Assembly: GCA_038727515.1 (NCBI GenBank)
Contig: JAVYVS010000002.1
Span: 160,001 to 224,000, forward strand
Reading direction: 5' to 3'
Source of the DNA: Candidatus Methanomethylicia archaeon
GTDB lineage: Archaea; Thermoproteota; Methanomethylicia; Culexarchaeales; Culexarchaeaceae
DNA length: 64,000 nt
In this document: one piece after another, positions 42,007-48,678 of the stretch
Layout: every line of letters starts with the position of its first letter
How positions within the stretch are numbered: the stretch's first letter is position 1
The notes under the pieces: generated by a model
The model's database searches: none
What the model was told of the DNA's origin: nothing
What the model saw: only the letters and a program-made list of their open reading frames with translations
Translations under genes and position numbers: made by a program

Positions 42007-43713
42007 GTGGGTAAATGGGTTGTATGTGCAGCTTGGCCTTATGTTAATGCTTTCCCTCATCTTGGAACTATGGTTGCATGTATAATTTCACCAGATGTAT
42101 TTGCAAGATATCTTAGGGCTAAGGGTGAAGAAATTGTGTTTGTTAGTGGATCTGATGAACATGGAACCCCCATTGAAGTTGAAGCTAGGAAGATGAATAT
42201 TCCACCTAAAAAGCTTACTGATGAACTTCACAATTATGTATTAAAGTTATATGAAAAATTGGGTGTTAGCTATGATAATTATACTAGAACTGAGAATCCT
42301 ATACATATAGATTTTGTTCAGAAGTTTTTCATGAAATTATATGAAAATGGATACATATACGAGAAGGAGGTTTCACTACCATTTTGCCCTAATTGCAATA
42401 TCTTCTTACCAGATAGATTTATTGAAGGTACATGTCCATATTGTGGTGAAACTAGAGCTAGAGGAGATCAATGTCCATCATGCAATAGGATTTTAGACCC
42501 AGTGGATCTACTGGAACCACACTGTGTCTTTTGTGGTTCTAAACCTGAAGTTAAAGTGACTAAACATTGGTTTTTTGATCTCCCTAAACTCTCAGATAAA
42601 CTTATGAATTTCGTTAATAATCATAAATTGTTTTCTGAGAGTATTAAGAATTATTGTAAGATGTGGTTTAAGGAGGGGTTGAAGGCTAGATCTATAACTA
42701 GGGATAACTCTTGGGGTATACCAGCACCCTTCCCAGGAGCTTCTGGAAAGACTATATATGTGTGGTTTGAAGCTTTATTGGGTTATCTCTCAGCAACTAA
42801 AGAGTATTTTATTAAGAAGGGATTTGAAGATTTATGGCTTGAATACTGGCTTAATAAAGATTCAAAGACTGTATACTTCATTGGTAAAGATAATATACCA
42901 TTTCATGCGATAATACTGCCAGCAATGCTCATGGCTTCTGGAGAAGGATATGTTCTTCCTTGGCAGATATCTTCAGTTGAATTTCTAATGTTTGAAGGTC
43001 AAGCTTTTAGTAAGAGTAGGGGTATAGGTGTTTGGATTGATGAAGCTTTAGAAATTGCCCCAGCAGATTATTGGAGGTTTGCATTAATACTAATGAGACC
43101 TGAAACTAGAGATTTAAATTTCACATGGGAATCTTTCCATCGTATCGTTAATGCTGAAATCAATGATAACCTTGGAAACTTTGTTCATAGAACTTTAAGC
43201 TTCATATACTCTAGATTTGATGCTAAGATTCCTAAACCATATGAACTTGATGATAGGGATAGATCAATGTTATATAAACTTAAGTTTGCACCTAAAAATA
43301 TTGGTGCTTTAATTGAAGATCTTAAGTTAAAGGCTGCTGCTGAATCTCTACTTGAATTCTCCTCCTCCGGTAATCAATATTTAAATGATAAAGCCCCTTG
43401 GAGAACTATTAAAGAAGATTTTGAAGTTGCATCTACAACTATGTGGGTTGCAGCTAATGTCGTTAAATCCTTAGCTATATTGATGGCACCCTTCATGCCA
43501 TTTTCCGCTGATAAAGTTTGGTATTATCTCAATTTAGGGGGCTCAGTTCACGAAGTTTGTTGGGATGATGCTTCAAAAGCAGATTTACAATATGGACATA
43601 GGATCAATAAGCCTGAGCCTTTATTTACAAAGTTTCCTGATGATTTTGTTAAAACTATAAATGATAGGTTGAAGGATGTGAGAATGCGTTTGAAAAGACC
43701 GGAGTTAGCTTGA
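42007..43713 (+). CDS. metG: Methionine--tRNA ligase
   Basis: AWPYVN..PHLG, GSDEHGTP, Zn knuckles, YVWFEA, GKDNIPFH, FSKS. Confidence 0.96.
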   Translation: MGKWVVCAAWPYVNAFPHLGTMVACIISPDVFARYLRAKGEEIVFVSGSDEHGTPIEVEARKMNIPPKKLTDELHNYVLKLYEKLGVSYDNYTRTENPIHIDFVQKFFMKLYENGYIYEKEVSLPFCPNCNIFLPDRFIEGTCPYCGETRARGDQCPSCNRILDPVDLLEPHCVFCGSKPEVKVTKHWFFDLPKLSDKLMNFVNNHKLFSESIKNYCKMWFKEGLKARSITRDNSWGIPAPFPGASGKTIYVWFEALLGYLSATKEYFIKKGFEDLWLEYWLNKDSKTVYFIGKDNIPFHAIILPAMLMASGEGYVLPWQISSVEFLMFEGQAFSKSRGIGVWIDEALEIAPADYWRFALILMRPETRDLNFTWESFHRIVNAEINDNLGNFVHRTLSFIYSRFDAKIPKPYELDDRDRSMLYKLKFAPKNIGALIEDLKLKAAAESLLEFSSSGNQYLNDKAPWRTIKEDFEVASTTMWVAANVVKSLAILMAPFMPFSADKVWYYLNLGGSVHEVCWDDASKADLQYGHRINKPEPLFTKFPDDFVKTINDRLKDVRMRLKRPELA

Positions 43714-43727
43714 TTTGAGGTGGGAAT

Positions 43728-44845
43728 TTGGAGTTACATGGTTTATTGAGGGATAAATCTTTGGCTCTTAGAGTTGCTAAGTACATTGATGAACGATGTT
43801 TTAAGAGTAGATATTTAATTATGCATGTTTGCGGCACACAGCCTTTTAAGGCTGGCCGATACATGAATATACAATAACGCATTTTGGAATACGCAACTTA
43901 ATACCAAAGATCGATTTAAGAGCTGGACCTGGATGTCCTGTTTGTGTCGCTTCACCAGTAAATATTGATTTAGCAGTTAATCTATCTCTACATGAAAATG
44001 TTATTGTCACAACTTTTGGCGATATGTTTAGAGTTAGAGGCTCTAAATATTCTCTGATGGATGCTAAGAGTATGGGTGGTAGAGTTACCATTGTTTATAG
44101 TATAAATGATGCTATTGAAATTGCTAGGAAAAATCCTAATTTTGAAATTGTTCATTTCGCTATTGGTTTTGAGACTACAGCTCCCTCCACAGCCGCTATT
44201 CTTTTATCTAATCCTCCAAGAAATTTCTCTATAATACCTACACATTTATTGATACCTCCAGTTATGTCTTATCTACTCAATCTTGGTGAAATTGGTATTG
44301 ATGGTTTTATATGTCCAGGTCATGTTTCAACTATTATTGGTGTTAAACCATATTTAGAGATTTCAATTTCCAATAAGGTTCCAATGGTTATAGCTGGATT
44401 TGAACCTTTAGATGTTCTATTTGGAGTCGCAATGCTTATCGATATGATTAATAATGGTGAATTTACTGTTAAGAATGAGTATAGTCGTGCAGTTAAATTT
44501 GAAGGTAATGTTAAAGCTATTCAATTGATGAATGAAGTATTTAGGGTTTCTGATGCTTATTGGCGTGGTATTGGTTTAGTTCCCAATTCTGGTTTAGTTC
44601 TTAGAGAAGAATTTTCAGATTTTGATGCTGTGAAGAAGTTTGATATTGAAGTTGAAGAAGATTATAGTATGCCTAAAGGTTGTAGGTGTGGTGATGTACT
44701 TAGGGGTTTAATTATGCCTCATGAATGCCCCTTATTCTCAAAATCATGTACTCCAGATAATCCTATAGGTCCATGTATGGTTTCTTCTGAAGGTGCATGC
44801 TCTATATTGTATAAGTATGGTGGATACATGTATTTAAAACGTTAA
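43728..44845 (+). CDS. hypD: Hydrogenase maturation protein HypD, split by a 23-nt putative intron (exon 1 43728-43837, exon 2 43861-44845; 364 aa spliced)
   Basis: GAGGTG RBS plus TTG; spliced MHVCGTHE...GPGCPVCV...GFETT...PGHVS...GFEP...CRCGDVLRG...CPLF...GPCMVSSEGAC. Confidence 0.92.
43838..43860 (+). other. Putative archaeal BHB-type mRNA intron in hypD
   Basis: CGGC-ACA-CAGCCT-ttta-AGGCTG-GCCG-ATA: 4-bp helix flanked by two 3-nt bulges; cutting after the second bulge nucleotide restores GGC ACA CAT GAA (G-T-H-E) in frame. Confidence 0.87.
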
Positions 44846-44977: not shown

Positions 44978-46849
44978 ATGGGTTTAAGATCTCCCAGTAG
45001 TCCTCCTCATATTGGTCAGAGTTCATCTTCAAAACCATCAGATAAATATGTTAGTATTAAGACATTTGTTAGATTGTTTCCATATATTAAGCGTAATTGG
45101 AAGCCATTTTTAATATCTGTTGTGGCAATGTTTATTAGTTCTCAATTAACCACTATTGCTCCAACATATATGAGGAGTGCTATTGATAATGGTATTGTTA
45201 AAGGTGATTTTCAAATCGTTGTTTTCTATGTTTTATTAATAGTTTCTGTAACTCTCTTAAGTGGTTTAAGTAGTTTTTGTGAAAGATATTATAGTACTAT
45301 TTTCTCTCAAAAAGTTGCATTAAACTTTAGGAATGAAGTTTTTAAAGCTATTCAGAGGCAGTCTTTCTCATTTTTTGATGAAGTGCCCACAGGCCAACTT
45401 GTAGCTAGAATTACTGATGATGTTGAGAGAATTGGTAGATTCTTATCATTTCCATTTAGAAATCTTATTTCAACAATTTTCTTGGCTTCATTAGCTATTA
45501 GCTATATGTGGGGTATGAATCAGAAGCTTTCCATTATAGTTGGGGTTTTCATGATTGGGATTCTTCTTGTAAGCATATACTACAATATGATTGTTAGACC
45601 ATTAAATATGGAGGCTAGAAATCAATTGGGTATACTTACTTCAATAACTGATAATAATATAACTGGATTTAGAACTATTAAGTCACTAAGTGTTGAGGAG
45701 AATAGGATTAAAGCATTTGTGGATGAGAATAATAAGTTATGGTCGCTTTACGTTCGTATAGCCAGAATAGATGCATTTTACGGTAGAATCGGGCCACTCC
45801 TGCTAGTTACATCTAACATAATAATACTGTACATTGGTGGTTTAGAGATAATTAATGGTGCATTTACCGTTGGTGGATTAGCTGCATTTAATGCATATAC
45901 CATGCTATTGATGAGACCTGTCAGTTTTATAGGAAATTTTGTTGGTATGTTTTCAATAGCTATGACATCTGCAAAAAGGTTGTTTGATATTATGGATTTA
46001 GTTCCTGAGGTTTATGAGAAACCTGATGCCATTGAGCTTCCACCAATTAAGGGTGAGGTAACTTTTGAAAATGTATGGTTTAGTTATGTTAAAGGTAAAC
46101 CAGTTTTGAAGGGTGTTAATTTAAAGGTTAAACCTGGAGAGAAGATTGCTTTGATAGGTAGAACTGGTTCTGGTAAAAGTACATTGATAAGTTTAATCCC
46201 AAGATTTTATGATGTTGATTCTGGATCTGTAAAGATTGATGGTTATGATGTTAGAGATGTTAAATTGAAATCATTGAGGAGGCAAGTGGCTATAGTTTCA
46301 CAAGAGCCATTCCTTTTCGCAGGAACATTTAAAGATAATATTTCTCTACCAAAACCTGAAGCTTCTATGGATGAAATTATTAGTGCCTCTAAGATAGCTA
46401 AAATACATGACTTTATAGCTTCATTACCAAATGGCTATAATTCTTGGATTGGTGAAAGGGGGATAACTCTCTCTGGAGGTCAAAAACAGAGGCTTACCAT
46501 TGCAAGAGCTTTAGTGTCTGGTGCAAAGATAATAATACTGGATGATCCAACTTCAAATTTAGATGCTAAAACTGAAAGGGAATTTATTGATGATCTTAAA
46601 GTAATCCTCAAAGATCATACAGTGTTTATAGTTACTCAGAGATTACCATTGATAATGATGGCTGATAGAATAGCAGTATTAGATGATGGTAGAGTGGTGG
46701 AAGAGGGTACTCATGAAGAACTTATGGCAAAGCGTGGATTGTATTATAATATTTACGTTGAGCTTTATGCTAAACAAAGGGCTGAATTAGAAGCTTTGAA
46801 AGCTGAAGTTGAGGCTGTGGGTAATTCTGGTAAGGATGGTGGTAAATAA
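44978..46849 (+). CDS. Heterodimeric ABC exporter subunit (TMD-NBD, degenerate site)
   Basis: GRTGSGKS, LSGGQKQR, LDD for Walker B and TQR for the H-switch. Confidence 0.92.
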   Translation: MGLRSPSSPPHIGQSSSSKPSDKYVSIKTFVRLFPYIKRNWKPFLISVVAMFISSQLTTIAPTYMRSAIDNGIVKGDFQIVVFYVLLIVSVTLLSGLSSFCERYYSTIFSQKVALNFRNEVFKAIQRQSFSFFDEVPTGQLVARITDDVERIGRFLSFPFRNLISTIFLASLAISYMWGMNQKLSIIVGVFMIGILLVSIYYNMIVRPLNMEARNQLGILTSITDNNITGFRTIKSLSVEENRIKAFVDENNKLWSLYVRIARIDAFYGRIGPLLLVTSNIIILYIGGLEIINGAFTVGGLAAFNAYTMLLMRPVSFIGNFVGMFSIAMTSAKRLFDIMDLVPEVYEKPDAIELPPIKGEVTFENVWFSYVKGKPVLKGVNLKVKPGEKIALIGRTGSGKSTLISLIPRFYDVDSGSVKIDGYDVRDVKLKSLRRQVAIVSQEPFLFAGTFKDNISLPKPEASMDEIISASKIAKIHDFIASLPNGYNSWIGERGITLSGGQKQRLTIARALVSGAKIIILDDPTSNLDAKTEREFIDDLKVILKDHTVFIVTQRLPLIMMADRIAVLDDGRVVEEGTHEELMAKRGLYYNIYVELYAKQRAELEALKAEVEAVGNSGKDGGK

Positions 46850-48678
46850 TGGGTTTTCATATGCATGGTATGTGGAGTTTTGGTGGAGAAAAAGTTGAGA
46901 CGCCTGCCACAATATTATTAAGAAAGCTTTTTAGGTATATGATGCCATATAAGCTTGCAGTATTTACTATTGTAACTTGTGTTGCTATAGTTTCTTTAAC
47001 CAATACGATTTCTCCATATTTACTTGGTTTAGCTATAGACAATTATATACTTGTGGGAGATCTATCTGGGCTTCTAAACATTTCTCTCTTATACCTCTTA
47101 GTAATGTTTGTGAATTGGATTGCAACGGTTATTCAAGGTTATGCTGTGGAGTGGACTGGTCAAAGATTGATTTATGATTTTAGGAATAAAATGATGGAGA
47201 AACTTATGTTTCAATCATACAAGTATTATGATGATAAACGTGCAGGTGAACTTATATCAATAGTTATAAATGATACTTCAACTTTAAGAGAATCCTTTAT
47301 TTCAGGTATATTCAACATTATTGGTGATATATTCTCAATGGTTGGTGTCATAATTGCCATGTTTCTATTAAATGTACCATTAACCCTTATAACTCTATTA
47401 ACACTTCCAGTAATGTTTCTAATAGCATATGTTTTTAACCGTAAGTTTAGAAAGGCTTATCGTAGGACTAGGGAGAAGATTGCTGAAGTAACCACTAGGG
47501 TTCAGGAAAGTGTTTCTGGGATTAGGGTTATACAGGCTTTTGGTAGGGAAGAGGATTCTCAAGCTAGATTTCAAATGAGCGCCCACGAGCAATTTGAAGC
47601 TCAAGTTCAAGCTGGAAAGCTTATGGCTATATTTTGGCCTATAATAAACTTTGTTGGTTCTATAGGTACAGTAACAGTTTTGCTTTATGGTGGATTTTTA
47701 AGTGCTGAAGGTAGACTTGAAATTGGTGTTTTAGTTGCTTTTCTTGCATATGTTACTAGGTTTATGAATCCAATAATGCAATTAACGAACTTCTATGATA
47801 TGTTGCAATCTGCACTTGCCGCTTCAGATAGGATATTCAAAGTTTTAGAGAGTGAAGTCGATGTTAAAGATTCTCCAAATGCTATTGAACTCCCAAAGGT
47901 TAGGGGTGATATAAGGTATAATAATGTTTGGTTTGAATATGTTAAGGGTATACCAGTTTTAAAGGGTATTAATCTTCATATAAGACCTGGAGAAAAGATC
48001 GCTATAGTTGGACCTACAGGTTCTGGTAAAACAACATTGGTTTATCTTCTTGCAAGATTCTATGATGTTACTAGTGGATCCATAACTATAGATGGTTATG
48101 ATATACGTAATGTTAAACAAGATTCTCTTAGACGTCAAATAGCATTTGTACCTCAAGATACATTTTTATTCCGTGGTACTGTAATGGATAACATTAGAAT
48201 TGGTAAACCTAATGCTACTGATGATGAAGTTATTGAAGTTTGTAAAAGACTTGGAATACATGATTTCATAATGAGACTCCCAAATGGATATTATACCGAT
48301 GCCGGTGAAGCCGGTAGAAAACTTTCAACTGGTGAGAGACAACTATTATCCTTTGCTAGAGCTTTACTTAAAGACCCGCCAATACTAATTTTAGATGAAG
48401 CTATTAGTGCTGTTGATCCTAAAACTGAATATATGATTAAATACGCCATAAGGAAATTGCTTGAAAATAGGACTTCAATAATTATTGCACATAGACTTAC
48501 ATTAGCAAGAGATTGGGATAGGATAATAGTATTACATAATGGAGTTATTGAAGAAGAAGGTACTCATGAAGAATTAATGCTTAAACAAGGATTCTACTAT
48601 CAATTATATACAACTCAGATTAGTGAGGAAATTGGTATAGAAGTTATTGGTAAAAATAATTCGAATTCTAAAAGTTAA
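46849..48678 (+). CDS. Heterodimeric ABC exporter subunit (TMD-NBD)
   Basis: GPTGSGKT, LSTGERQ, LDEA, IAHRL; stop/start overlap with partner. Confidence 0.92.
   Translation: MGFHMHGMWSFGGEKVETPATILLRKLFRYMMPYKLAVFTIVTCVAIVSLTNTISPYLLGLAIDNYILVGDLSGLLNISLLYLLVMFVNWIATVIQGYAVEWTGQRLIYDFRNKMMEKLMFQSYKYYDDKRAGELISIVINDTSTLRESFISGIFNIIGDIFSMVGVIIAMFLLNVPLTLITLLTLPVMFLIAYVFNRKFRKAYRRTREKIAEVTTRVQESVSGIRVIQAFGREEDSQARFQMSAHEQFEAQVQAGKLMAIFWPIINFVGSIGTVTVLLYGGFLSAEGRLEIGVLVAFLAYVTRFMNPIMQLTNFYDMLQSALAASDRIFKVLESEVDVKDSPNAIELPKVRGDIRYNNVWFEYVKGIPVLKGINLHIRPGEKIAIVGPTGSGKTTLVYLLARFYDVTSGSITIDGYDIRNVKQDSLRRQIAFVPQDTFLFRGTVMDNIRIGKPNATDDEVIEVCKRLGIHDFIMRLPNGYYTDAGEAGRKLSTGERQLLSFARALLKDPPILILDEAISAVDPKTEYMIKYAIRKLLENRTSIIIAHRLTLARDWDRIIVLHNGVIEEEGTHEELMLKQGFYYQLYTTQISEEIGIEVIGKNNSNSKS

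What the first reader, a model, noticed from the sequence alone, without database searches (positions are those of the whole stretch)
43820..43877. Candidate BHB mRNA intron inside the CGTH motif of hypD
Seen: read unspliced, hypD goes MHVCGT-QPFKAGRYMNIQ-stop (49 aa), while the rest of HypD continues in another frame. The 23-nt insert ACAGCCTTTTAAGGCTGGCCGAT (43838-43860) folds with its flanks as follows: central helix CGGC(43832-35)/GCCG(43855-58), 3-nt bulges ACA(43836-38) and ATA(43859-61), and inner hairpin CAGCCT/AGGCTG with a 4-nt loop. The outer helix is either a short TG/CA or TATGCATG/CATGAATA (7 of 8 pairs). Cutting after the second base of each bulge gives GGC AC|A CAT GAA = G-T-H-E and a 1095-nt, 364-aa HypD. 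The exon codons TGC GGC end in C, whereas this strand usually uses TGT/GGT. Established: BHB is the substrate of the archaeal tRNA splicing endonuclease EndA; the classic protein-gene example is crenarchaeal cbf5; the CGxH cysteine is essential for HypD function. Inference: hydrogenase cofactor synthesis depends on EndA/RtcB splicing here, a possible post-transcriptional control point that pipelines would miscall as a pseudogene. I know of no described hypD intron but cannot verify novelty.
Basis: partly seen in the sequence, partly recalled or inferred. Interest (0 to 1): 0.95.

Follow-up and report, generated by a model that had tools for sequence, protein, structure and literature searches.

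The report
tRNA-type intron splitting archaeal hypD
The hydrogenase-maturation gene hypD of this hot-spring archaeon is interrupted inside its essential Cys-Gly-Thr-His motif by a 23-base insert shaped like a tRNA intron, so its mRNA is very probably cut and rejoined by the tRNA-splicing enzymes. In the papers I could search, this is confirmed inside a coding region for only one archaeal gene, cbf5.

Summary
Window 43838-43860 (23 nt) breaks hypD between CG-T and HE. Removing it gives an uninterrupted 364-aa HypD. [quoted passage not shown]

The insert is real DNA: two independent hot-spring metagenomes hold it without indels. It occurs only once in the genome.

An insert of 20-42 nt sits at the same codon in 47 distinct hypD sequences from Culexarchaeales, Nezhaarchaeales, some Bathyarchaeia and the Asgard Baldrarchaeum. 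The inner hairpin covaries, and two synonymous exon sites in the outer helix covary as well.

Exon 2 is under strong purifying selection (dN/dS about 0.1). The genome encodes a catalytic and a structural EndA subunit, RtcB and intron-bearing tRNAs. It also carries a 19-nt BHB intron in cbf5 at the classic site.

Splicing was not observed: the one RNA run did not cover the junction. A second, divergent, intact hypD lies on a 6-kb contig.

I found no published hypD intron. This scan has noted the same intron before in other genomes, mostly Asgard.

Verdict: a real, very probably spliced mRNA intron, and a new member of a known kind.

The parts
43728..43837 (+). hypD exon 1 (36 codons plus 2 bases). 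It ends ...ATG CAT GTT TGC GGC AC, that is M-H-V-C-G-T(2/3). The start is TTG 43728, with a GAGGTG-like Shine-Dalgarno sequence at 43717-22. An in-frame TTG at 43746 is an alternative start.
   Evidence: It is colinear with intron-less orthologs L004-L006 (...[17 protein letters not shown]).
43838..43860 (+). 23-nt BHB intron ACAGCCTTTTAAGGCTGGCCGAT. It runs from the 3rd base of bulge 1 to the 2nd base of bulge 2.
   Evidence: It is unique in the genome. It is present without indels in independent metagenomes X2 and X10. Same-site inserts occur in 47 distinct sequences.
43861..44845 (+). hypD exon 2. Its first base A completes the Thr codon; then [11 protein letters not shown]... runs to the stop codon at 44843-45. 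The motifs GPGCPVC, GFETT, PGHVS and the C-terminal Cys cluster are intact.
   Evidence: Pfam HypD positions 29-351, E 3.5e-130; motifs present, dN/dS 0.10-0.14.
43832..43835 (+). Central helix H, 5' strand, CGGC. It is exonic: the last base of the Cys codon TGC plus the Gly codon GGC.
   Evidence: It pairs with 43855-58. The pairs are CG/GC/GC in 47 of 47 sequences, and the 4th pair is CG in 36, UG in 9 and unpaired in 2. These are rare codons in this genome.
43836..43838 (+). Bulge 1 (ACA). The predicted 5' cut lies between 43837 and 43838.
   Evidence: The cleavage rule (between the 2nd and 3rd bulge residue) is taken from PMC2738675.
43839..43854 (+). Inner hairpin h': CAGCCT (43839-44), loop TTTA, AGGCTG (43849-54).
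   Evidence: All 6 pairs show changes on both sides across relatives.
43855..43858 (+). Central helix H, 3' strand, GCCG (intronic).
43859..43861 (+). Bulge 2 (ATA). The predicted 3' cut lies between 43860 and 43861.
43825..43831 (+). Outer helix h, 5' strand (exon 1, in the His-Val-Cys codons). It pairs in register with 43862-43868. In this genome the pairs are G-C, U-A, U-U (mismatch), U-G, G-A (mismatch), U-A, A-U.
   Evidence: Synonymous third positions covary across relatives: 43829/43864 is GC in 30, AU in 9, GU in 3; 43826/43867 is UA in 20, CG in 18, UG in 4.
43862..43868 (+). Outer helix h, 3' strand (exon 2, in the His-Glu codons).
43728..43877 (+). The 49-aa ORF read from unspliced RNA (...MHVCGTQPFKAGRYMNIQ*). 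This is what gene callers would report, or they would report a truncated 273-aa ORF at 44024-44845.

Best explanation
A 23-nt archaeal bulge-helix-bulge (BHB) intron lies inside the hypD coding sequence.

The proposed mechanism has four steps:
1. The pre-mRNA folds so that exon bases CGGC pair with intron bases GCCG. This forms a 4-bp helix flanked by two 3-nt bulges, an intronic hairpin and a short exon-exon helix.
2. The tRNA-splicing endonuclease EndA cuts after the second base of each bulge. Here EndA is a two-subunit, crenarchaeal-type alpha/beta enzyme.
3. RtcB ligates the exons and probably circularises the intron.
4. The mature mRNA reads ...TGC GGC ACA CAT GAA... and encodes a complete 364-aa HypD with its CGTHE motif restored.

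What is shown: the structure; the exact restoration of the frame; the reality of the insert in DNA; its conservation and covariation; selection on the exons; and the presence of the enzymes and of other BHB introns (tRNA, cbf5) in the same genome.

What is inferred: that cleavage and ligation happen in vivo, and any regulatory role.
For: Structure and frame: searches give the geometry and a 1095-nt open frame.

Homology: searches show that exon 2 is HypD profile positions 29-351. One search shows that intron-less orthologs read [13 protein letters not shown] continuously at this point.

Conservation without ascertainment bias: searches found relatives by protein or Pfam search, not by motif. 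In the class, hypD is split at the same codon in family f1 1/5, f2 1/1, f3 2/3 and f7 9/9.

Wider distribution: searches give 47 distinct sequences, 20-42 nt long, several with in-frame stop codons.

Covariation: 90% of cells are paired, against 78.6% in shuffles (0 of 500 reach the observed value) and 26-38% when partners are slid. The covariation score is 0.358 against 0.169. Eight pairs show changes on both sides, two of them at synonymous exon positions.

Codon choice: one search shows that rare TGC-GGC codons are kept at helix H.

Selection: one search gives dN/dS 0.10-0.14.

DNA reality: one search shows the insert in independent DNA runs from 2017 and 2024, with no indels. One search shows it is single-copy.

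Machinery: searches show EndA alpha (Tyr/His/Lys present; best PDB matches are 3p1z_B/3ajv_B, 2cv8 and 2zyz_B, which I recall as crenarchaeal catalytic subunits), EndA beta and RtcB. One search finds 13 of 47 tRNA genes with introns.

Second case in the same genome: searches show that cbf5 carries a 19-nt BHB intron between the 1st and 2nd letter of the catalytic Asp codon. This is the published site (PMC2738675).
Against: - No RNA evidence. The only RNA-library contigs cover 44579-44787 and metG, not the junction.
- The outer helix in this genome has a U-U mismatch, and the minimum-free-energy fold uses another register for it.
- Folds of some relatives do not form helix H (Bathyarchaeia L036) or are no more stable than shuffles (L016, z -0.8).
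- The invariance of H in the 47-sequence set is partly imposed by my search pattern.
- The closest sampled genus (G003-G005) and G007 lack the insert, so it is dispensable.
- A second intact hypD sits in a hypE-hypC-hypD cluster on contig C11. Loss of this copy might therefore be tolerated.
Confidence: 0.86

Rival explanations
1. Pseudogene. A small insertion inactivated this hypD, and the intact hypD of the hypE-hypC-hypD cluster on contig C11 does the work.
For: A second full-length hypD exists, together with a second hypC. The unspliced frame stops after 49 aa.
Against: Exon 2 has dN/dS of 0.10-0.14 against orthologs that are 70-81% identical, and all motifs are intact. The insert keeps an exact BHB with covarying helices at the same codon in 47 sequences. 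In the class, the other 12 genomes with a split hypD each have only that one hypD match. The C11 copy is found in no other genome of the class and may be a transfer or a binning contaminant.
Confidence: 0.03
2. Translational recoding. The ribosome bypasses the 23 nt (hopping as in T4 gene 60) or shifts frame, using the hairpin as a stimulator, and the RNA is not cut.
For: A stable hairpin lies directly after the Thr codon. Archaeal cbf5 introns were once mistaken for frameshift sites (PMC2738675).
Against: There are no matched take-off and landing codons. Landing on ACA 43861-63 would be followed by TGA. Bulge-2 sequences differ among relatives (ACT, ATC, AGT, GGT...). Insert lengths of 20-42 nt fall in all three phases, and many contain stop codons in the entry frame. 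A frameshift would also insert about 7 residues between T and H of the CGTHE motif. The conserved features are precisely those of a BHB: a 4-bp helix between two 3-nt bulges, and an exon-exon helix.
Confidence: 0.04
3. Split protein. The two ORFs are translated separately, and a 36-49-aa N-terminal peptide assembles with a C-terminal HypD fragment.
For: Both frames are open and conserved.
Against: Exon 2 has no in-frame start codon near the junction; the first ATG is at 44024, 54 codons downstream. The break would divide the CGxHE metal-binding motif between two chains. Inserts of 21 nt are in frame but carry a stop codon (G024, G028). None of this explains the BHB geometry or the covariation of exon bases with each other and with the insert.
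Confidence: 0.02
4. Assembly or sequencing artefact, or a small mobile repeat inserted in the DNA.
For: The genome is a 12-contig metagenome-assembled genome.
Against: The insert is identical in contigs of independent runs from different years and studies, at depths of 211 and 22 and with no indels. A JGI contig is 99.6% identical across the region (L082). There is no other copy in the genome at up to 5 mismatches.
Confidence: 0.01

Closest known systems
BHB intron in the cbf5 pre-mRNA of Crenarchaeota (Watanabe 2002; Yoshinari 2006; Yokobori 2009, PMC2738675)
   Same: Both are short BHB introns inside a coding sequence, placed within the codons of a catalytic motif. In both, the predicted cut between the 2nd and 3rd bulge residue restores the frame. 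Both show patchy gain and loss among relatives. Both host organisms have a two-subunit (alpha/beta) EndA. This very genome also carries the cbf5 intron at the published site.
   Different: The host gene differs: hypD is a [NiFe]-hydrogenase maturation factor, not an RNA-modification enzyme. The lineages differ: Methanomethylicia (Culexarchaeales, Nezhaarchaeales), some Bathyarchaeia and Asgard Baldrarchaeum. In most carriers the hypD motif is a canonical hBHBh', whereas most cbf5 introns are described as unconventional BHBs. Splicing of cbf5 has cDNA support; splicing of hypD has none yet.
Archaeal tRNA and rRNA BHB introns and processing sites cut by EndA and joined by RtcB
   Same: The motif and the presumed enzymes are the same: a 4-bp helix between two 3-nt bulges, cut to leave a 2',3'-cyclic phosphate and a 5'-OH, then ligated by RtcB. 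Of the 47 predicted tRNA genes here, 13 have introns.
   Different: The substrate is an mRNA. The exon side of the helices is built from codons, so protein coding and RNA pairing constrain the same bases (rare TGC-GGC codons; covarying synonymous sites).
BHB intron in the 5' UTR of a Haloferax volcanii mRNA (Schwarz et al. 2020, PMC7714728)
   Same: It is an EndA substrate in an mRNA.
   Different: By my recollection of that paper, the site lies in the untranslated leader and not in the reading frame. Here, removal is required to make the protein.
HAC1/XBP1 unconventional cytoplasmic splicing in eukaryotes (IRE1 cut, RtcB or Trl1 ligation)
   Same: Both are spliceosome-independent removal of a short intron from an mRNA, changing the reading frame, with RtcB-type ligation in metazoa (named in PMC13149111 and PMC8718801).
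   Different: The endonuclease is IRE1 acting on paired stem-loops, not EndA on a BHB, and the event is a regulated stress switch. No regulation is shown here.

Membership tests
Archaeal BHB intron (EndA substrate) | Two 3-nt bulges on opposite strands, separated by a 4-bp helix | tested here: met
   CGGC 43832-35 pairs with GCCG 43855-58, between ACA 43836-38 and ATA 43859-61. The same arrangement is seen in 45 of 47 distinct relatives; two have a mismatch in the 4th pair.
Archaeal BHB intron (EndA substrate) | Flanking helices: an intronic h' and an exon-exon h (hBHBh', or the relaxed HBh') | tested here: met
   h' has 6 bp and covaries at all 6 pairs. In most relatives h is G-C, U-A, N-N, U-G. 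In this genome its third pair is U-U, so the motif here is slightly relaxed.
Archaeal BHB intron (EndA substrate) | Cutting between the 2nd and 3rd bulge residues yields a functional product | tested here: met
   The result is a 1095-nt open frame with CGTHE restored, colinear with intron-less orthologs. The rule is taken from PMC2738675.
Archaeal BHB intron (EndA substrate) | The genome encodes EndA and an RNA ligase (RtcB) | tested here: met
   Two EndA paralogs lie at C1:648694-648951 and C3:134369-134623, and RtcB at C3:109318-110625.
Archaeal BHB intron (EndA substrate) | The intron is absent from mature RNA (spliced junction, excised or circular intron) | tested here: inconclusive
   The one metatranscriptome holding this organism's sequence does not cover the junction, and contigs cannot show levels.
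cbf5-type protein-coding BHB intron | It lies inside the CDS and breaks or stops the frame, and both halves are conserved | tested here: met
cbf5-type protein-coding BHB intron | The host has a hetero-oligomeric (alpha-beta)2 EndA with broad specificity | tested here: met
   A catalytic alpha of 188 aa (FAVYKHGPGIDH...SVKKK) and a beta of 174 aa that lacks the His are present. The best solved-structure matches of alpha are 3p1z_B, 3ajv_B, 2cv8 and 2zyz_B, which I recall as crenarchaeal catalytic subunits. The oligomeric state itself cannot be tested here.
HypD (Pfam PF01924) | Full-length profile match and the conserved motifs CGxH, GPGCPVC, GFETT, PGHVS and the C-terminal Cys cluster | tested here: met
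   Exon 2 matches positions 29-351 at E 3.5e-130. Exon 1 supplies ...MHVCG. The motifs were located.
Programmed ribosomal bypass or frameshift | Matched take-off and landing codons, or a slippery site, with a fixed phase | tested here: not met
   No matched codons were found. Lengths of 20-42 nt fall in all phases, and stop codons occur in the entry frame.
Known RNA families (Rfam 15) | A match to a curated covariance model | tested here: not met
   No match at E of 1 or better in 43500-44200.

The most novel reading that the evidence does not exclude
The hypD intron is an ancient mRNA intron that predates the split of TACK and Asgard archaea. On this reading it was kept in some lineages and precisely lost in others. 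It makes assembly of the hydrogenase cofactor depend on the tRNA-splicing machinery, as a post-transcriptional gate comparable in logic to HAC1/XBP1. EndA/RtcB splicing of mRNAs would then be a regular, overlooked layer of archaeal gene expression, with a preference for codons of catalytic motifs (Asp of cbf5, CGTH of hypD).
Probability: 0.2. Interest if true: 0.9.

Novelty: new member of a known kind. Interest (0 to 1): 0.75.

Why it matters
In the papers I could search, cbf5 is the only archaeal protein gene with a confirmed BHB intron in its coding region (PMC2738675). Papers from 2025-26 that I checked cite only the cbf5 papers for archaeal mRNA splicing, or do not mention it.

A second host gene would show that archaeal mRNA splicing is not a one-gene curiosity. 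The case here is strong on comparative grounds: the intron is conserved across Methanomethylicia, some Bathyarchaeia and an Asgard lineage, and synonymous codon positions covary to keep the RNA helix.

There is also a practical consequence. Gene callers report this hypD as a 49-aa or truncated ORF, or as a pseudogene. Metabolic reconstructions of these uncultured H2-cycling archaea could therefore wrongly score hydrogenase maturation as missing.

The claim is directly testable, because a member of the Nezhaarchaeia lineage has recently been cultivated (PMC12700198). All 9 sampled genomes of the family that holds the Nezhaarchaeota MAG WYZ-LMO8 (f7) carry the intron.

Tried and rejected
1. RNA evidence. 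One metatranscriptome (X16) and one possible RNA run (X20) hold parts of the stretch, but neither covers 43562-44533. This says nothing about splicing.

2. Unbiased phylum census with Pfam HypD. The match table was cut after 150 rows, sorted by score, so the lower-scoring split genes outside the class could not be counted. The motif-pattern census of the same 401 genomes found carriers only in the window's own class (10 genomes; reversed-pattern control 0). It can see only this flank and helix sequence.

3. Genome-wide BHB scans.
- A loose definition gave 279 hits and 1457 hits, mostly adjacent genes. It is uninformative.
- A first pure-Python version timed out.
- The strict scan gave 11 hits. 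Two are convincing: hypD and cbf5. C2:64032-64090 is an intergenic hairpin between a complete mtd gene and a fwdD/B-like gene. Two hits are CRISPR repeats. The remaining six were not confirmed: C4:17253-17307 was checked against Pfam and stays unresolved, four (C1:326849, C1:217809 and the two overlapping hits at C4:20563-20604) were only translated, and C3:209070 was not examined further.

4. Whether the C11 hypD is native. The hypD of the same-family genome G001 is about 42-43% identical to both copies, so it does not help. Tetranucleotide correlation of C11 is 0.94, similar to other small contigs. The question is unresolved.

5. Group I or II intron, intein, or mobile repeat. The insert is 23 nt, has no Rfam match and is single-copy. 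Rejected.

6. Neither is supported by covariation.

7. Literature searches for hypD together with BHB, intron or archaea found nothing relevant.
Full report
**1. What is in the sequence**

On the + strand an ORF starts at TTG 43728 and reads ...[10 protein letters not shown], then QPFKAGRYMNIQ and a stop at 43877. From 43862 another frame reads [29 protein letters not shown]... to a stop at 44845. It matches Pfam HypD positions 29-351 at E 3.5e-130. Deleting 43838-43860 (ACAGCCTTTTAAGGCTGGCCGAT) joins the two into a 1095-nt, 364-aa HypD with the motif MHVCGTHE.

The flanks and insert form the following structure:
- central helix H: CGGC (43832-35) with GCCG (43855-58)
- 3-nt bulges: ACA (43836-38) and ATA (43859-61)
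- inner hairpin h': CAGCCT/AGGCTG with loop TTTA
- an exon-exon helix that starts G43831-C43862, U43830-A43863

The minimum-free-energy fold reproduces H, bulge 1 and the hairpin (-19.6 kcal/mol, z -3.66, 0 of 200 shuffles as good). The order of elements (h, H, bulge, h', H, bulge, h) and the cut after the second bulge residue follow the rule quoted for archaeal BHB introns in PMC2738675.

**2. It is real DNA and not a repeat**

Logan contigs of two independent hot-spring metagenomes cover the whole 1.6 kb with three SNPs and no indel. One is X2 (2017, depth 211) and the other is X10 (2024, depth 22). Twelve or more runs from several studies hold over 90% of the sampled words. A JGI contig is 99.6% identical. 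The 23-mer has no other copy in the 1.59-Mb genome, even at 5 mismatches.

**3. Who carries it**

The window is C2:160001-224000 of a 12-contig genome: 1.586 Mb, 33% GC, 93.6% complete. A protein search of 40 relatives, followed by inspection of their DNA, found an insert at exactly the same codon in 11 of them. These were found without using any motif.

A Pfam census of all 62 genomes of the class gives the following counts of split hypD (profile start 28/29, or an in-frame stop):

| Family | Split hypD |
|---|---|
| f1 | 1/5 (this genome only) |
| f2 | 1/1 |
| f3 | 2/3 |
| f7 | 9/9 |
| f5 | 0/30 |
| f4 | 0/4 |

Pattern scans of 185,579 species genomes and of the JGI metagenomes added named carriers: Ca. 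Nezhaarchaeota/Nezhaarchaeales, Ca. Culexmicrobium thermophilum and C. cathedralense, several Bathyarchaeia, 'Thermoprotei B19_G17', and the Asgard Ca. Baldrarchaeum yapensis. L007 is identical to the C. thermophilum record and L009 to the C. cathedralense record. The window's order is therefore the one that holds Culexmicrobium (Culexarchaeia of PMC9723716). The family and genus of the window itself are not named by any tool.

In all, 47 distinct insert-bearing sequences were collected, 20-42 nt long. In a 401-genome sample of the phylum, this pattern occurs only in the window's class (10 genomes; reversed control 0). Carriers elsewhere are therefore a minority.

**4. Covariation**

The test used the 47-sequence alignment A1 and the canonical structure.
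- 90.0% of cells form standard pairs, against 78.6% in shuffles (0 of 500 reach the observed value) and 26-38% when partners are slid.
- The covariation score is 0.358 against 0.169 (0 of 500).
- All six inner-hairpin pairs change on both sides (for example CAGCC/GGCTG, CGGGG/CCCCG, CGAGG/CCTCG, TGACCGAG/CTCGGCCA).
- Two outer-helix pairs are made of synonymous third positions of exon codons, and they covary. Val-3 with His-3 (43829/43864) is GC in 30, AU in 9, GU in 3 and unpaired in 5. His-3 with Glu-3 (43826/43867) is UA in 20, CG in 18, UG in 4 and unpaired in 5.

In this genome the third pair is U-U, so its motif is slightly relaxed.

Helix H is CGGY/GCCG in 45 of 47 sequences. That invariance is partly imposed by my pattern. 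However, the 12 class members found by homology (this genome and the 11) show it too.

Codon choice points the same way. All carriers use TGC for the Cys codon. In this genome TGC is 21% of Cys codons and GGC is 5% of Gly codons. AT-rich intron-less relatives use TGT GGT/GGA.

**5. The gene is alive**

Exon 2 was compared with orthologs at 70-81% identity. This gives dN 0.14-0.27, dS of 1 or more, and dN/dS 0.09-0.25 (0.10-0.13 against the closest three). The motifs GPGCPVC, GFETT, PGHVS and the C-terminal Cys motifs are intact.

The genome has at least five [NiFe]-hydrogenase large-subunit-like genes and two hypC genes.

A second hypD, 47% identical, lies in a hypE-x-hypC-hypD cluster on the 5.9-kb contig C11. 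No other genome of the class has a second copy. It sits on a long branch, and its origin (transfer, paralog or binning contaminant) is unresolved. The interrupted copy is the ortholog of the single hypD of the relatives.

**6. The machinery, and a second case in the same genome**

Two EndA paralogs are present. One is a 188-aa alpha subunit with the catalytic Tyr/His/Lys context. Its best solved-structure matches are 3p1z_B/3ajv_B, 2cv8 and 2zyz_B, which I recall as the catalytic subunits of the Aeropyrum, Sulfolobus and Pyrobaculum enzymes. The other is a 174-aa beta subunit that lacks the His. RtcB is present. Thirteen of 47 predicted tRNA genes carry introns. [quoted passage not shown]

A strict scan required a 4-bp H, 3-nt bulges, an inner stem of at least 4 bp, and open frames on both sides that are closed without splicing. 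It returned 11 hits, of which only hypD and cbf5 are convincing.

The cbf5 gene (C2:9293-9311, minus strand) has a 19-nt insert, A-GCCT-TATT-AGGC-GGGG-AA. Its removal joins GTL-D|PKV between the first and second letter of the catalytic Asp codon. That is the site published for crenarchaeal cbf5.

In the class, cbf5 is split in families f1, f2, f3, f4, f7 and f8, and intact in f5, f6 and f9. Every family with the hypD intron also has the cbf5 intron.

**7. Evolution**

On a HypD tree of 66 sequences, intron presence needs at least 4-5 changes. That tree is the quick method and was not the finished careful search. Carriers from the pattern scans are over-represented by design. The Nezhaarchaeales clade (18/18) and one Bathyarchaeia clade (21/21) are uniform. 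The Culexarchaeales clade is mixed, with intron-less G003-G005 as the sister of the window's gene and G007 nested among carriers. This fits precise losses, as proposed for cbf5 in PMC2738675, but lateral movement is not excluded.

**8. Rivals**

- Pseudogene: contradicted by selection and by conservation of the structure.
- Ribosomal bypass or frameshift: contradicted by variable length and phase, by stop codons, and by the lack of take-off and landing codons.
- Two-chain HypD: there is no start codon, and the metal-binding motif would be divided.
- Artefact or repeat: contradicted by independent DNA samples and by single-copy status.
- No Rfam family matches.

**9. What is missing**

There is no transcript evidence. 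The metatranscriptome contigs that match cover only part of metG and 44579-44787. Single-sequence folds of some relatives do not form H.

**10. Novelty**

Full-text searches found no paper that combines hypD with BHB or with an archaeal intron. The Culexarchaeia description mentions neither introns nor hyp maturation genes. The 2025-26 papers I checked cite only the cbf5 papers for archaeal mRNA splicing, or do not mention it.

Earlier agents of this scan reported the same hypD intron in other genomes, mostly Asgard. I did not test those genomes. I did independently find the Asgard Baldrarchaeum carrier.

The present case adds three things: the Methanomethylicia and Bathyarchaeia carriers; the covariation at synonymous exon sites; and the co-occurrence with a cbf5 intron in the same genome.

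Verdict: a new member (a new host gene) of a known kind, very probably functional, and awaiting RNA proof.

Noticed in passing
G000:C2:9293-9311 (minus strand; L109:1797-1815), outside the window: cbf5 of this genome is split by a 19-nt BHB intron (H is CCCT/GGGG, bulges AGA and AAA, hairpin GCCT-TATT-AGGC). The break lies between the 1st and 2nd letter of the catalytic Asp codon, which is the classic crenarchaeal site. In the class, cbf5 is split in families f1, f2, f3, f4, f7 and f8, and intact in f5, f6 and f9.
   Followed up: partly
G000:C11:725-4768 (L002), outside the window: A second, divergent, intact hypD (353 aa, 47% identical) lies in a hypE, small Cys-rich ORF, hypC, hypD cluster on a 5.9-kb contig. 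No other genome of the class has a second hypD. Its origin (transfer, paralog or bin contaminant) is unresolved.
   Followed up: partly
G000:C4:17253-17307 (minus strand; L113), outside the window: A SAM-methyltransferase-like ORF is interrupted by 55 nt that contain a (TA)n run and can be drawn as a BHB (AAGC/GCTT). The downstream half has no Pfam match. It could be an intron, a frameshift or a decaying gene.
   Followed up: partly
G000:C2:64032-64090 (L110), outside the window: A strong 59-nt hairpin with BHB-like flanks lies between a complete mtd gene (methylene-H4MPT dehydrogenase) and a fwdD/fwdB-like molybdopterin gene. It is intergenic and not an intron. It shows that BHB-like shapes occur at gene boundaries.
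   Followed up: yes
window 43841-43852 and G000:C2:9299-9310: The hypD and cbf5 introns of this genome share the hairpin core GCCT-N4-AGGC. The genome has only 5 such sites, against about 3.6 expected from base composition by my own estimate. This could be chance or a shared preference.
   Followed up: no
G000:C1 near 85.1, 100.1 and 131.2 kb, outside the window: CRISPR-like repeats (CTTTCAATTCCCTTTGTTGGGTTCA) turned up as false BHB hits in the scans.
   Followed up: no
window 43817, 44008, 44158: Three fixed differences (A>G, C>T, C>T) separate this assembly from the populations in runs X2 and X10. None touches the intron or its helices.
   Followed up: no
window 42007-43713 and 44978-48678: hypD is flanked by metG (methionyl-tRNA synthetase, 568 aa) upstream and by two ABC-transporter ATPase/permease fusion genes downstream (by the look of their translations; not checked against a family library). 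It is not in a hyp operon.
   Followed up: no
L036 and related Bathyarchaeia loci (for example L039, L043): The Bathyarchaeia version of the intron is 32-33 nt long with an 11-bp G-U-rich inner stem. Its minimum-free-energy fold prefers an alternative exon-1 hairpin (GCAUGUGUGCGGCACAUG) over helix H.
   Followed up: no
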